Source of the DNA: Chloroflexota bacterium
GTDB lineage: Bacteria; Chloroflexota; Dehalococcoidia; SM23-28-2; JACOUE01
Direction of reading: 5' to 3'
NCBI GenBank assembly: GCA_016178045.1
Contig: JACOUE010000019.1
Location: 1,377 to 65,376, forward strand
Length of the DNA stretch: 64,000 nucleotides
Below, piece by piece: positions 4,651-6,570 of this stretch (the first letter of the stretch is position 1; every line of letters starts with the position of its first letter). Both the position numbers and the translations under genes were made by a program. The notes beneath the pieces are model-generated. The model did not search any database. It was not told the DNA's origin and worked only from the letters and a program-made list of their open reading frames with translations.

Positions 4651-4665
4651 GGGGGCTAGGCGGCG

Positions 4666-5766
4666 GTGGTGGGTGCAGTGGCTGGGTCCTTCTTCGACGA
4701 ACCCGAGGAACAGTCGCTAGTCAAGGCCGACATAGTAGTTAGCTATTTCGACGCTTGGTCTCGCATCATGGTGAAGCGGGCCGAGCGGATTGGCTACTTC
4801 GACTTCTATGCAGGTCCAGGCCGCTACGCGGCTGGCCGAAGGTCGACGCCGCTTCTTATCATGGAGCGCGCCATTGCATCGAACGACCTCTCCTCGCGCT
4901 TGGTTACCATTTTCAACGATGCCAATCCGGACTACACGAGCTCTTTAGAGTCTGAGATAAAGGGATTAGCGGGTATTGAACGCCTCAAATACCAACCCCA
5001 GGTCGTCACGGGTGAAGTGAACGATGACTTGGCCCAGCAGTTCGAGGAGATCAAGACGATCCCCTCTCTCAGCTTCGTAGACCCATGGGGCTATAGGGGT
5101 CTTTCGCTAAGGCTAATCCGAGCGGTCATCAAAGACTGGGGCTGTGAGGTGATCTTCTTCTTCAACTACAACCGCATCAACATGGGCATCAACAACAACC
5201 TTGTAGAGCCTCACATGCAGGCGCTGTTGGGACAACAGCGCCTGAAGGAGGTACGTGCGGACATGGCGTCGCTTCGCCCGGATGCTCGAGAAAGTAGGCT
5301 GATGCGGGCTACAGGAGAGGCTTTAGAAGAGATGGGCGCGCCCTACCTTATCCCCTTCAGGTTCCGCAGGCGGGAAGGCAGGGTGAGCCACTACATTTGC
5401 TTCGTTACTAAGCACCCGCTCGGCTACAGCATCATGAAGGAGATTATGGCCTCCCGTGGAGTGGTCGACGACGATGCAGTTCCCCGGTTCGAGTACATGC
5501 CGCGCACTGCCGGCATGCAACTGGCCTTTGATCGGCCCCGGCCGATCGTTGCCCTTCCTCAACAACTTTGTGCGGCGTTCGTCGGCCAGACCCTTACTCT
5601 GAAAGAGGTTTACGCCCGGCATAATGTCGGGACGCCCTTCATAAAGCGGAACTACAAGAAGGTTCTTATCGAGATGGAGCGGGCGCGTCAGATAGCTTGC
5701 GACCCAAACTACGATTCACGCAAGCCGGGCACAATCGCGGACCATGTGTTAGTAACGTTCCCCTAA
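4666..5766 (+). CDS. tcmP: Three-Cys-motif partner protein TcmP-like (function unknown; methyltransferase-like motifs)
   Basis: It lies next to a DUF5131 gene. It carries FDFYAGPGRY and SFVDPWGY motifs. GC is about 50%. Family assignment is from memory of TIGR04474 and was not searched. Confidence 0.65.
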   Translation: MVGAVAGSFFDEPEEQSLVKADIVVSYFDAWSRIMVKRAERIGYFDFYAGPGRYAAGRRSTPLLIMERAIASNDLSSRLVTIFNDANPDYTSSLESEIKGLAGIERLKYQPQVVTGEVNDDLAQQFEEIKTIPSLSFVDPWGYRGLSLRLIRAVIKDWGCEVIFFFNYNRINMGINNNLVEPHMQALLGQQRLKEVRADMASLRPDARESRLMRATGEALEEMGAPYLIPFRFRRREGRVSHYICFVTKHPLGYSIMKEIMASRGVVDDDAVPRFEYMPRTAGMQLAFDRPRPIVALPQQLCAAFVGQTLTLKEVYARHNVGTPFIKRNYKKVLIEMERARQIACDPNYDSRKPGTIADHVLVTFP

Positions 5767-6492
5767 AGGTCTTGGCATTGCGTCCCATAGCCGGCCATCT
5801 AACAGGCGGCCAGATCTCGTCTTCCCGACCCGTTCCCCGACCTCGTTATGTGCCCCCCACTGCTTGAAGAAGAAGGCTACGCCCTGCGCCTGGCACTGCG
5901 CGCGTATGTGGCGTGCCCACTCGGCCTTCATGGGTCTCGCACGGGCGCCGCTTTCACCTCCCACGATCACCCAGTTAATGCCTCGCAGGTCCAGGGTGAG
6001 GGGACCTAGAAGCGGCTCGCAAGACAGGAAGCGGATCTTCGCCGGTACACAGCGAAGGTCATCGACTCTGGCGGTCCAACGTTGATTCTCGACGGACACC
6101 CCCATCCAGACATTCCGGGGCCAGGGCAGGCGCGGAGCCAGTTCGGCCATGCGCTCGGAGCGCTTCGTGAGGATCTGGAATGTATGCCAGTGGGCTTTTC
6201 GCATTACATGAAAGACCGACCTGATGTAAGCCTGTGGGATATCTTCGTGGAATAGGTCGCTCATCGAGTTCACAAAAATCGTCCGTGGCTGGACCCAGTT
6301 GAGGGGTTGCTCAAGACGCTCCGGGCGCAGTTGCAGGTCAAACCCACGCTCGTACGGGTGGCCGTGGACGCCCCTGAACCGCTCAGCGAAAGTCTCCGCG
6401 TAACAATGAGCACAGCCAGGGCTGACCTTCGTGCACCCCGTCACCGGGTTCCACGTAGCTTCGGTCCACTCGATTGAAGAGCGCTCCGCCAT
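5749..6492 (-). CDS. DUF5131 / phage Gp37-Gp68 family protein (three Cys motifs)
   Basis: The start is ATG 6492 with a GAGGG RBS. The N-terminus [33 protein letters not shown] is the family hallmark. SCEPLLGP and VIVGGESG occur later. Confidence 0.8.
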   Translation of the reverse strand: [247 protein letters not shown]

Positions 6493-6570
6493 TTTGCCCT
6501 CTAGGCTAACTGAACCAGGATTCGCGTGCAATTATAGCACGTACGTTCGCCAGTAACGACATGTGCGAAG

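What the first reader, a model, noticed from the sequence alone, without database searches (positions are those of the whole stretch)
4651..6560. Low-GC TcmP-like + DUF5131 (Gp37/Gp68-like) pair wedged between thyX and folD: candidate uncharacterised nucleic-acid modification or defence module
Hand counts on 60-nt lines give about 47-55% GC across 4666-6531, against 70-78% in the adjacent thyX and folD sequence, so this looks like an acquired islet. ORF 5749-6492(-) opens with [33 protein letters not shown], the hallmark of the phage Gp37/Gp68 (DUF5131) three-Cys-motif family. It has C-x6-C-x2-C, then SCEPLLGP and VIVGGESG, reminiscent of Fe-S / radical-SAM-type barrels. ORF 4666-5766(+) fits my recollection of its obligate partner TcmP. 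It carries FDFYAGPGRY followed by SFVDPWGY, the same order as motif I (xAGxG) and motif IV (DPPY-like) of RlmJ/N6-adenine-type methyltransferases. Databases recognise this duo as co-occurring, but to my knowledge no function is assigned. Here the genes are convergent with 18-nt overlapping 3' ends. They sit exactly between two thymidylate/one-carbon genes.
Basis: partly seen in the sequence, partly recalled or inferred. Interest (0 to 1): 0.75.

Follow-up and report, generated by a model that had tools for sequence, protein, structure and literature searches.

The report
Mobile TcmP–DUF5131 enzyme pair islet
A foreign two-gene cassette sits between two housekeeping genes: a radical-SAM-like enzyme and a methyltransferase-like DNA-binding partner. 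It belongs to a widespread catalogued pair that is an untested candidate anti-phage system of unknown chemistry.

Summary
The ORFs, motifs, 18-nt convergent overlap and thyX/folD flanks are as described. The GC dip is real but was overstated: 58.1% against a 67.4% window mean, z=-3.5, GC3 0.69-0.71 against 0.95-0.97.

Family membership is firm (PF07505 E=2.6e-108; TIGR04474 4.8e-55). TcmP models confidently as a class I SAM methyltransferase fold plus a C-terminal winged helix. DUF5131 models as a six-unit beta/alpha barrel whose best PDB matches are spore photoproduct lyase.

Thirteen related Dehalococcoidia/Chloroflexota genomes were sampled. Eleven keep thyX-folD and none carries the pair. 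The spacer varies from 98 bp to 3.6 kb with miscellaneous cargo, so the location is a variable hotspot and does not indicate a thymidylate link.

Of 76 TcmP genes, 75 have an adjacent DUF5131, in three gene orders. Only 24 of 80 viral DUF5131 genes have a TcmP. Neighbours are enriched for restriction, BREX and DISARM genes. In prophages the pair lies in the integrase/repressor module.

PADLOC already lists the pair as untested candidates PDC-M30/M41. Verdict: a new member of a known, uncharacterised kind. It is most likely a SAM-dependent nucleic-acid-modifying defence module. Function and chemistry remain unproven.

The parts
4666..5766 (+). TcmP (three-Cys-motif partner protein), 366 aa. The alternative GTG start at 4678 would give 362 aa.
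   Evidence: TIGR04474 E=4.8e-55, 187 bits against a cut-off of 53. PADLOC PDC-M30A 5e-16. AF2 model pLDDT 91, pTM 0.88. 100%-identical database protein P0001.
4708..5460 (+). TcmP class I SAM methyltransferase-fold domain (about residues 15-265), with a helical insert at about 168-222.
   Evidence: Foldseek against the PDB gives 168 hits at E<=1e-3. All 50 listed are class I methyltransferase-fold chains, nearly all annotated methyltransferases. The RlmJ family gives the lowest rmsd, 5.1-5.7 A.
4795..4827 (+). Motif I, YFDFYAGPGRY (residues 44-54), the SAM-binding loop after strand 1.
   Evidence: D46 117/118, G50 118/118 and G52 117/118 across the ungapped TcmP-like sequences. It follows strand 42-47 in the model.
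5074..5094 (+). Motif IV-like catalytic loop, FVDPWGY (residues 137-143), directly after strand 4.
   Evidence: D139 118/118, P140 114/118, an aromatic residue at 141 in 112/118, G142 117/118. It follows strand 134-138.
5494..5706 (+). TcmP C-terminal winged helix-turn-helix (residues 277-347).
   Evidence: PF22560 GMT-wHTH E=6.4e-12, 46 bits against a cut-off of 27. The helix-strand-helix-helix-strand pattern is in the model.
5749..6492 (-). DUF5131 / Gp37-Gp68 family protein, 247 aa, short form.
   Evidence: PF07505 E=2.6e-108. PDC-M41B 1.3e-111 and PDC-M30B 5.6e-107. phrog_2045. AF2 pLDDT 82.7. Best PDB matches are spore photoproduct lyase. GAGGG lies 5-6 nt upstream of the ATG at 6492.
6403..6435 (-). 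Three-Cys motif C20-x6-C27-x2-C30, followed by Y31. It lies between predicted strand 1 and helix 1.
   Evidence: C20 150/153, C27 151/153 and C30 150/153 across paired and solo homologues. The loop has low model confidence, as expected without a cofactor.
5749..5766 (.). 18-nt overlap of the convergent 3' ends.
   Evidence: Coordinates. All relatives with TcmP >=65% identical are also convergent, with 14-29 nt of overlap.
4651..4665 (.). Left junction. Homology to relatives ends just after the thyX stop codon.
   Evidence: Alignment A6. No terminal repeats and no tRNA.
6493..6570 (.). Right junction and divergent DUF5131/folD intergenic region. TATAAT reads on the minus strand at 6536-6531, 38 nt upstream of the DUF5131 ATG.
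   Evidence: Sequence read. Homology to relatives resumes at the first folD codons. The consensus scan found no complete -35/-10 promoter.
3856..4650 (+). thyX, the conserved left flank of the hotspot (context, not part of the module).
   Evidence: PF02511 8.6e-50, TIGR02170 2.3e-43. 73-81% identical in 13 relatives.
6571..7476 (+). folD, the conserved right flank of the hotspot (context, not part of the module).
   Evidence: PF02882 1e-63, PF00763 5e-38. Lies downstream of thyX in 11 of 13 relatives.

Best explanation
The islet is a horizontally acquired, self-contained two-gene module of the TcmP + short-form DUF5131 type (PADLOC candidates PDC-M30/M41). It landed in a variable-cargo hotspot between thyX and folD.

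DUF5131 is the autonomous catalytic component. It is a small member of the radical SAM superfamily, with a six-unit beta/alpha barrel closest to the DNA-repair enzyme spore photoproduct lyase. Its C-x6-C-x2-C loop would hold a [4Fe-4S] cluster that cleaves SAM to a 5'-deoxyadenosyl radical.

TcmP is a dependent partner. It has a class I SAM methyltransferase fold with intact SAM-binding residues, an amino-methyltransferase-like D-P-aromatic-G-Y loop, and a C-terminal winged helix that would supply nucleic-acid targeting.

I propose that the two act on the same flipped base in DNA. Either they install a covalent mark together, or one marks self DNA while radical chemistry acts on unmarked DNA. 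I further propose that the cellular role is defence against phages and other mobile elements.

Shown: family membership, folds, motif conservation, near-obligate adjacency of TcmP to DUF5131, co-evolution, foreign composition, absence from relatives at this site, defence-gene neighbourhood, and lysogeny-module position in prophages.

Inferred: Fe-S and SAM chemistry, DNA as substrate, physical complex, and defence phenotype.
For: Identity: PF07505 2.6e-108 and TIGR04474 4.8e-55.

Folds: the TcmP model (pLDDT 91) matches only class I methyltransferase-fold chains among its listed PDB hits (168 at E<=1e-3). The DUF5131 model (pLDDT 82.7) is best matched by spore photoproduct lyase (prob 0.91-0.97, TMq 0.46-0.49). 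RadicalSAM.org places DUF5131 in Megacluster 5-2, next to SPL in 5-3 (PMC9477430). The protein also scores 2.5e-20 against NCBIfam 'radical SAM mobile pair protein A'.

Active-site conservation across the whole family: TcmP K20, D46, G50, G52, D/E85, D139 and G142 in 117-118 of 118; DUF5131 Cys in 150-151 of 153.

Coupling: 75 of 76 TcmP loci have an adjacent DUF5131, in three gene orders. There is no conserved third gene. Identities correlate (rho=0.62, p=3e-10) and DUF5131 is the more conserved partner in 77 of 84 pairs.

Foreign origin: GC and GC3, absence from 13 relatives at this site, and the pair being AT-richer than its flanks in 44 of 46 loci.

Defence context:
- Neighbours within 2 genes hit 375 PADLOC models, including Type III MTase 3.5e-297, DrmD 3e-209, Type IIG 3.7e-208 and BrxH. 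An equal-sized control set at least 5 genes away hits 52 models.
- In viral contigs the neighbours are HTH_3, Peptidase_S24, integrase, ImmA and Cro/C1.
- In Gordonia phages, TcmP lies directly downstream of the immunity repressor. Genes in that slot were shown to be defence genes in CarolAnn (PMC6426606).
- A TcmP paralogue is listed as co-transcribed with the validated defence gene hna on pSymA (PMC12445080).
- The PDC-M30/M41 candidates came from genes embedded in BREX, DISARM or Type I RM loci.
Against: - No experiment on any member exists in the searched literature, and the PDC systems are explicitly 'untested'.
- The Cys spacing is non-canonical. No Pfam Radical_SAM hit appeared, and no PDB fold match reaches E<=1e-3.
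- TcmP has no sequence-level match to any methyltransferase family, and its motif IV departs from (D/N)PP(Y/F/W).
- In this window the neighbours are housekeeping genes, not defence genes.
- Most phage DUF5131 genes are solo. That fits a function useful to phages themselves at least as well as it fits host defence.
- The dependency runs the opposite way from restriction-modification, where the methylase can stand alone and the toxic enzyme cannot.
- One other tested PDC-M candidate (M63AB) showed no defence in its native host (PMC12409345).
Confidence: 0.5

Rival explanations
1. The module is a DNA hypermodification pathway that serves the mobile element itself, as anti-restriction or self-marking of phage or plasmid DNA, not host defence. 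DUF5131 installs a radical-derived base modification. TcmP is a downstream tailoring methyltransferase that acts only on that product.
For: The dependency pattern fits a pathway in which a tailoring enzyme never occurs without the upstream enzyme: TcmP has DUF5131 in 75/76 loci, while DUF5131 is solo in 56/80 viral loci. DUF5131 is found in 181 phage records. Both enzymes keep intact catalytic motifs. The SPL-like fold implies base flipping in DNA.
Against: In prophages the pair sits in the lysogeny/immunity module and TcmP follows the repressor. That argues for expression in the lysogen rather than during lytic replication, when phage DNA would need modifying. In cellular genomes it occurs far from any phage genes. 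No nucleotide-precursor genes accompany it.
Confidence: 0.2
2. The module is an RNA-modifying pair acting on rRNA or tRNA, by analogy with RlmJ (m6A) and radical SAM RNA methylases. Its effect would be translational tuning, or resistance to a toxin or antibiotic.
For: RlmJ-family structures give the lowest rmsd among the TcmP fold matches, and Hen1 RNA methyltransferase gives the best E-value. Motif I, Y-x-D-x-x-AG-x-GRY, is shared with E. coli RlmJ.
Against: hhalign probability for RlmJ is only 10% and there is no Pfam RlmJ hit. The C-terminal wHTH and the SPL-like partner point to DNA. The distribution is sporadic and horizontally transferred, and the neighbourhood is restriction-modification genes rather than translation genes.
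Confidence: 0.1
3. The module is a DNA repair system. DUF5131 reverses a base lesion or crosslink by radical chemistry, as spore photoproduct lyase does, and TcmP recognises or processes the lesion.
For: SPL entries are the top structural matches and the neighbouring cluster in RadicalSAM.org. Solo carriage by many phages would suit a repair enzyme.
Against: The fold matches are weak (E about 1e-2). There is no association with repair or SOS genes beyond occasional neighbours. The invariant methyltransferase catalytic motifs in TcmP have no obvious repair role. Defence-island enrichment is not expected for a repair gene.
Confidence: 0.1
4. The module is an addiction or toxin-antidote pair. TcmP makes a potentially harmful modification that DUF5131 reverses or controls. 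This would explain why TcmP is never found without DUF5131.
For: The direction of dependency, the tight and often overlapping gene arrangement, mobility and AT-rich composition.
Against: Both proteins are large, conserved enzymes, unlike typical small TA components. There is no evidence of toxicity. The convergent arrangement argues against simple co-transcription.
Confidence: 0.07
5. The pair is functionally linked to thymidylate or one-carbon metabolism because it lies between thyX and folD, for example by modifying thymine or using folate-derived methyl groups.
For: Position only.
Against: None of the 13 relatives with conserved thyX-folD synteny has the pair. The same spacer holds unrelated cargo: MOSC, glyoxalase, hydrolase, an IS200-like transposase and MarR-PNPOx. 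Homologous pairs sit in unrelated contexts, such as dnaN/response regulator and Lhr/peptidase.
Confidence: 0.02

Closest known systems
TcmP (TIGR04474) + DUF5131/phage Gp37-Gp68 (PF07505) pair, listed in PADLOC-DB as candidates PDC-M30 and PDC-M41
   Same: Both proteins score far above the family cut-offs and are adjacent. The size, motifs and C-terminal wHTH match the family.
   Different: Nothing essential differs; this is a member. The local peculiarities are the convergent arrangement with 18-nt overlap, which is shared only with the closest clade, and the location in a housekeeping hotspot instead of a defence island or prophage.
Spore photoproduct lyase (radical SAM DNA repair enzyme; PDB 4fhc, 4fhg)
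   Same: It is the best structural match for DUF5131. Both have a partial beta/alpha barrel with an N-terminal Cys loop between strand 1 and helix 1. It is also the neighbouring megacluster in RadicalSAM.org.
   Different: DUF5131 has C-x6-C-x2-C rather than C-x3-C-x2-C. It is about 100 residues shorter, shares only 12% identity, matches at E about 1e-2, and shows no sequence-profile match.
RlmJ-type and other amino-group class I methyltransferases (PDB 4blv, 6qe5, 2oo3)
   Same: Rossmann methyltransferase fold with an inserted helical subdomain. Motif I, Y-x-D-x-x-AG-x-GRY, is nearly identical. An acidic residue ends strand 2, and a D-P-x-x-Y loop follows strand 4.
   Different: Homology is not demonstrable by sequence (hhalign 10%; no Pfam or PDB profile hit). 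Motif IV reads D-P-W-G-Y, not D-P-P-Y. TcmP has an extra C-terminal wHTH and an obligate radical-SAM-like neighbour.
Radical SAM mobile pair protein A (TIGR04471)
   Same: It is a homologous branch of the same superfamily (E=2.5e-20) and is also described as half of a mobile two-gene pair.
   Different: The score of 72.9 bits is far below the equivalog cut-off of 355, and the partner protein is different.
Restriction-modification systems
   Same: Two-gene mobile module that includes a methyltransferase-fold protein, AT-rich composition, and a neighbourhood of other defence genes.
   Different: There is no nuclease fold. The dependency is reversed: the methyltransferase-like protein never stands alone while its partner often does.

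Membership tests
DUF5131 / phage Gp37-Gp68 (PF07505) | Full-length match to the Pfam model above the gathering score. | tested here: met
   361.6 bits against 28.9, E=2.6e-108, model positions 2-243 of 243.
DUF5131 / phage Gp37-Gp68 (PF07505) | N-terminal three-cysteine motif. | tested here: met
   C20-x6-C27-x2-C30 is present. The three Cys are kept in 150-151 of 153 homologues.
TcmP (TIGR04474) | Match to the NCBIfam model above its cut-off. | tested here: met
   187.3 bits against 53, E=4.8e-55.
TcmP (TIGR04474) | Encoded next to a PF07505 gene. | tested here: met
   Adjacent and overlapping by 18 nt here. Adjacent in 75 of 76 sampled loci.
PADLOC candidate systems PDC-M30 / PDC-M41 | Both component models match adjacent genes. 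| tested here: met
   B component: 1.3e-111 (M41B) and 5.6e-107 (M30B). A component: 5.2e-16 (M30A) and 3.5e-5 (M41A).
PADLOC candidate systems PDC-M30 / PDC-M41 | Confers phage defence. | not testable with these tools
   The source paper calls the 145 PDC systems untested. No experimental paper was found.
Radical SAM superfamily | Canonical C-x3-C-x2-C motif and a Pfam PF04055 match. | tested here: not met
   The spacing is C-x6-C-x2-C. There is no PF04055 hit at E<=0.01.
Radical SAM superfamily | Partial (beta/alpha)6 barrel with the Cys loop between strand 1 and helix 1. | tested here: inconclusive
   The model shows six beta/alpha units, with the Cys loop between strand 12-14 and helix 32-38. 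The best PDB matches are SPL, but only at E about 1e-2. RadicalSAM.org lists DUF5131 within the superfamily.
Radical SAM superfamily | [4Fe-4S] cluster and reductive cleavage of SAM. | not testable with these tools
   This requires anaerobic biochemistry.
Class I SAM-dependent methyltransferases | Rossmann-like methyltransferase fold. | tested here: met
   168 PDB matches at E<=1e-3; all 50 listed are class I methyltransferase-fold chains, nearly all annotated methyltransferases. The viral library matches are likewise almost all methyltransferases or methyltransferase-domain proteins.
Class I SAM-dependent methyltransferases | Motif I G-x-G loop after strand 1 and an acidic residue at the end of strand 2. 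| tested here: met
   G50-P-G52 follows strand 42-47 and D85 ends strand 79-85. Conserved in 117-118 of 118.
Amino-group (N6-A / N4-C / N2-G) methyltransferases | Motif IV (D/N/S)-P-P-(Y/F/W) after strand 4. | tested here: inconclusive
   D139-P140-W141-G142-Y143 is in the right position and is near-invariant, but the pattern differs from the canonical tetrapeptide.
RlmJ family (23S rRNA m6A2030 methyltransferase) | Sequence-profile homology to RlmJ. | tested here: not met
   hhalign aligns 22 columns (motif I) at probability 10%. There is no Pfam hit and no PDB profile hit.
Radical SAM mobile pair protein A (TIGR04471) | Score above the equivalog cut-off. | tested here: not met
   72.9 bits against a cut-off of 355.
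Restriction-modification system | A nuclease component whose presence depends on a protective methylase. | tested here: not met
   No nuclease family or fold was found. The dependency runs the other way.

The most novel reading that the evidence does not exclude
TcmP and short-form DUF5131 together form a new class of defence or epigenetic system built on radical SAM chemistry applied directly to DNA. In this reading, a winged-helix-targeted methyltransferase-fold subunit and an SPL-like radical enzyme act on the same flipped base to write, or to destroy, a previously undescribed DNA modification. The solo long-form phage enzymes, which carry their own Cys-rich inserts, would be the autonomous ancestral version.
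Probability: 0.3. Interest if true: 0.8.

Novelty: new member of a known kind. Interest (0 to 1): 0.45.

Why it matters
TcmP is a large family with no known function: 5,267 clusters at 50% identity match at E<=1e-3. Its DUF5131 partner is at least as widespread, with both searches capped at 8,000 hits, and it is also uncharacterised. Both spread among bacteria, archaea, plasmids and phages.

If the pair is a defence or DNA-modification system, it would add radical SAM chemistry acting on DNA to the immune repertoire and might yield a new base modification or a sequence-targeted enzyme.

This instance is a clean natural test case. It is a minimal 1.9-kb cassette with sharp boundaries, its own apparent expression signals, and empty-site relatives for comparison.

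The analysis gives concrete handles for experiments:
- the one-way dependency of TcmP on DUF5131;
- the short (paired) versus long (solo) split in DUF5131;
- the invariant catalytic residues;
- cultivable phage models (Gordonia phages ThankyouJordi and Fairfaxidum);
- a copy next to hna in S. meliloti.

Tried and rejected
1. I recalled that the Gordonia phage CarolAnn gp43/44 defence system might be this pair. The paper shows it is RexAB-like (DUF4747 plus a membrane protein), so the lead is rejected. Only the positional argument about the repressor-adjacent slot is kept.
2. Sequence-level links to solved structures: phmmer and profile searches of both proteins against the PDB gave nothing significant.
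3. RlmJ homology: hhalign against the real E. coli RlmJ aligns only motif I at 10% probability. I keep 'works like an amino-methyltransferase' but not 'is an RlmJ family member'.
4. Mobility signatures: no flanking direct or inverted repeats, recombinase, tRNA or Rfam element at the boundaries.
5. A conserved third gene: none. The largest neighbour cluster covers 4 of 77 loci.
6. Fusion proteins linking the two families: none among the best 150 representatives.
7. A functional link to thyX/folD: rejected by synteny.
8. My first count of TcmP next to viral DUF5131 (9/72) was too low, because the HMM missed divergent phage TcmPs. An iterated profile gives 24/80.
9. The consensus promoter/terminator scan found nothing informative.
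10. Literature searches for DUF5131, TcmP, PF07505, TIGR04474, IPR011101 and TIGR04471 found no functional study.
11. I could not establish what 'GMT' stands for in Pfam PF22560.
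Full report
**1. The observation**

The two ORFs exist as described.
- 4666-5766(+) encodes 366 aa with FDFYAGPGRY and SFVDPWGY.
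- 5749-6531(-) has its probable ATG at 6492, preceded by GAGGG. It encodes [33 protein letters not shown]..., with C-x6-C-x2-C, [10 protein letters not shown] and WVIVGGESG.
- The genes are convergent and overlap by 18 nt.

thyX (3856-4650) and folD (6571-7476) flank them.

In 300-nt windows the islet runs 0.53-0.64 and the flanks 0.65-0.72. Overall the islet is 0.581 against a window mean of 0.674. That is z=-3.5, and this is the lowest-GC 1.9-kb stretch of the whole 64 kb. GC3 is 0.69-0.71 against 0.95-0.97 in thyX and folD. The anomaly is real and large, but about half the size claimed.

**2. Identity of the proteins**

The minus-strand protein matches PF07505 (DUF5131, formerly phage Gp37/Gp68) over the full model at E=2.6e-108. 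[quoted passage not shown]

PADLOC recognises both as components of candidates PDC-M30 and PDC-M41. These are 'guilt-by-embedding' candidates found nested in BREX, DISARM or Type I RM loci, and their authors describe them as untested (bioRxiv 10.1101/2024.01.29.577857). PHROGs gives only an unknown-function family. No paper in the library reports a function.

**3. Folds**

TcmP, predicted from a 45-sequence alignment, gives pLDDT 91 and pTM 0.88. Foldseek against the PDB returns 168 matches at E<=1e-3. All 50 listed are class I methyltransferase-fold chains, nearly all annotated SAM-dependent methyltransferases. The RlmJ family gives the lowest rmsd, and viral structure matches agree.

The conserved motifs sit where a methyltransferase needs them:
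- Y-x-D-x-[FY]-[AC]-G-P-G-R-[YF] after strand 1;
- F-N-D at the end of strand 2;
- F-[IV]-D-P-W-G-Y after strand 4.

Across the 118 ungapped of 120 TcmP-like sequences, spanning 19-100% identity, K20, D46, G50, G52, D/E85, D139 and G142 are kept in 117-118. That argues for a working enzyme rather than a scaffold.

No sequence method links TcmP to any methyltransferase family. There is no Pfam hit and no PDB profile hit. hhalign against genuine E. coli RlmJ aligns only motif I, at 10% probability.

DUF5131 gives pLDDT 82.7. It has six beta/alpha units, and the Cys loop lies between strand 1 and helix 1. Invariant polar residues sit at the C-terminal ends of the strands: S76/D79, T109-K-R, E159-P and G178-G-E-S-G.

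Its best PDB matches are spore photoproduct lyase entries (prob 0.91-0.97, TMq 0.46-0.49), but none reaches E<=1e-3. RadicalSAM.org lists DUF5131 as Megacluster 5-2, beside SPL in 5-3 (PMC9477430). The protein also scores 2.5e-20, below cut-off, against 'radical SAM mobile pair protein A'. The three Cys are kept in 150-151 of 153 homologues.

**4. The insertion site**

Thirteen Dehalococcoidia/Chloroflexota metagenome-assembled genomes encode ThyX at 73-81% identity.
- Eleven keep folD downstream of thyX, and none has TcmP or DUF5131 there.
- The spacer ranges from 98 bp (L014, effectively an empty site) to 3.6 kb.
- It holds unrelated cargo: MOSC, glyoxalase, alpha/beta hydrolase, an IS200-like transposase, MarR-PNPOx, unknowns, and one weak AbiTii-like hit.

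In the window, homology to relatives stops just after the thyX stop codon and resumes at the first folD codons. There are no flanking repeats, no recombinase, no tRNA and no Rfam element.

The location is therefore a variable-cargo hotspot between two conserved genes. It says nothing about thymidylate metabolism. Close homologues of the pair sit in unrelated contexts elsewhere: between dnaN and a response regulator, or next to an Lhr helicase.

**5. How the two genes relate**

In 80 metagenome loci anchored on TcmP, 75 of the 76 with enough flank have DUF5131 immediately adjacent. There are three arrangements: 48 TcmP then DUF5131, 8 DUF5131 then TcmP, and 19 convergent. No third gene is conserved.

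The two proteins' identities to the window proteins correlate (Spearman 0.62, p=3e-10). DUF5131 is the more conserved partner in 77 of 84 pairs. Every relative with TcmP at least 65% identical shares the convergent arrangement, with 14-29 nt of overlap.

The reverse dependency does not hold. Of 80 viral loci anchored on DUF5131, only 24 have a TcmP-like neighbour, even with an iterated profile.

The split follows DUF5131 length:
- short forms (<=270 aa, as here): 19 with TcmP, 12 without;
- long forms (>270 aa): 3 with TcmP, 33 without.

Some long forms carry Cys-rich inserts. I infer that these may supply their own nucleic-acid binding, which TcmP's winged helix would supply for the short forms.

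TcmP is a large family: 5,267 50%-identity clusters at E<=1e-3 and 955 at <=1e-30. There are no fusions among the best 150. It reaches actinobacterial and haloarchaeal plasmids.

**6. Context evidence for function**

- In cellular contigs, proteins within two genes of the pair (132 tested) hit 375 PADLOC models. These include Type III methylase (3.5e-297), DrmD (3.2e-209), Type IIG RM (3.7e-208), BrxH and PD-Lambda-5_B. ResIII and N6_Mtase lead the Pfam list. An equal-sized control set from the same loci, at least five genes away, hits 52 models, each with a single member.
- In viral contigs carrying the pair, neighbours are dominated by HTH_3 (10), Peptidase_S24 (8), integrase (5), ImmA/IrrE (4) and Cro/C1 (4).
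- In Gordonia phages ThankyouJordi and Fairfaxidum the layout is integrase ... DUF5131(+), then TcmP(-) and the immunity repressor(-), with TcmP directly downstream of the repressor. Genes co-expressed with the repressor in that slot were shown to be defence genes in CarolAnn, although those are RexAB-like and unrelated to this pair (PMC6426606).
- On S. meliloti pSymA my HMM scan finds DUF5131, then TcmP, then a second, convergent TcmP lying 27 nt downstream of an 852-aa ORF. The Hna paper lists SMa2245 (Hna) and SMa2243 (TcmP) as one putative transcription unit, co-induced about two-fold (PMC12445080). That the 852-aa ORF is hna is my inference from position and gene numbering.
- The pair is AT-richer than its flanks in 44 of 46 loci, with a median difference of -6.3 points. 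This is typical of horizontally moving genes.

**7. Mechanism**

The best-supported reading is a SAM-dependent, two-enzyme module acting on nucleic acid, most likely DNA.
- DUF5131 is the autonomous radical-SAM-type catalyst.
- TcmP is a dependent partner that is targeted by its winged helix and is methyltransferase-competent.

The biological role is most likely defence or conflict between mobile elements (confidence 0.5).

The direction of dependency argues against simple restriction-modification logic. In those systems the methylase can stand alone and the toxic partner cannot. The pattern here fits better a pathway in which TcmP acts on, or directs, what DUF5131 does.

The rival explanations are:
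- self-serving DNA hypermodification by mobile elements (0.2);
- RNA modification (0.1);
- SPL-like DNA repair (0.1);
- a toxin-antidote pair (0.07);
- a thymidylate link (0.02).

Fe-S binding, SAM cleavage, the substrate, complex formation and any phenotype are all inferred. None could be tested with these tools.

**8. Novelty and verdict**

The duo is already catalogued by NCBIfam and PADLOC, so this locus is a new member of a known but uncharacterised kind.

The analysis adds the following:
- fold assignments for both proteins;
- family-wide conservation of the catalytic residues;
- the one-way dependency, and the split between short (paired) and long (solo) DUF5131 forms;
- quantified enrichment of defence genes in the neighbourhood, and the lysogeny-module position in prophages;
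- the demonstration that the thyX-folD position is a hotspot coincidence.

Interest is moderate (0.45). The instance itself is not surprising, but it is a clean, minimal entry point to a widespread family of unknown chemistry.

Noticed in passing
window 4651-6570, compared with L008-L020: The thyX-folD spacer is a variable-cargo hotspot in related Dehalococcoidia/Chloroflexota genomes. It ranges from 98 bp (L014, empty) to 3.6 kb and holds MOSC, glyoxalase, alpha/beta hydrolase, an IS200-like transposase, MarR-PNPOx and several proteins with no family match. No recombinase or repeats explain the turnover.
   Followed up: partly
window 5218-5244 (+), inside TcmP codons 185-193: A perfect 12-bp inverted repeat with a 3-nt loop (CAGGCGCTGTTG GGA CAACAGCGCCTG). 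None of 300 codon shuffles reaches 12 bp (maximum 10). It is absent from the same position in 10 relatives (best stem 3-4 bp). Unexplained.
   Followed up: partly
L198 (S. meliloti pSymA, NC_003037.1 1240000-1285000) 14083-19903: DUF5131 (14083-15039, +) is followed by TcmP (15075-16322, +). A second, convergent TcmP paralogue (16340-17317, -) lies 27 nt downstream of an 852-aa ORF (17345-19903, -), which is presumably the validated defence gene hna (SMa2245). So one DUF5131 has two TcmP paralogues nearby.
   Followed up: partly
alignment A2, e.g. P0347 and P0319; L007 3001-3972: Long-form DUF5131 proteins (about 300-350 aa; Burkholderia and Sphingomonas prophages, phage phi1026b) carry insertions, some with paired CxxC motifs. 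They usually lack a TcmP neighbour. The inserts may be built-in nucleic-acid-binding modules.
   Followed up: no
window 10063-10698 (-) and 11095-11694 (-): Two paralogous DUF1326 proteins (4.3e-58 and 1.2e-37) lie close together. The first has reduced GC (0.62, GC3 0.755).
   Followed up: no
window 7473-7910 (-) and 7901-9151 (-): A ChrB C-terminal-domain ORF (1.1e-44) lies immediately downstream of folD on the opposite strand. It overlaps the 3' end of a 416-aa ORF with a membrane-transporter-like sequence (7901-9151, not family-tested). It could be a chromate-resistance-like pair.
   Followed up: no
window about 29100-32400: This is the second-lowest GC patch of the window (about 0.607). 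It contains a 573-aa ORF (30698-32419, +) with a SpaA/prealbumin-fold domain (1.2e-15). The overlapping long ORFs have no family match.
   Followed up: partly
L011 2128-2508: In one relative, the ORF directly after thyX gives a weak AbiTii (abortive infection) match in PADLOC (E=1e-4). This hints that defence-type cargo also visits the hotspot elsewhere.
   Followed up: no
window 5154-5165 and 5864-5875: A perfect 12-nt inverted repeat (CTTCTTCTTCAA / TTGAAGAAGAAG). It arises because both proteins encode an FFF[N/K] motif on opposite strands, so it is probably a coding coincidence.
   Followed up: no
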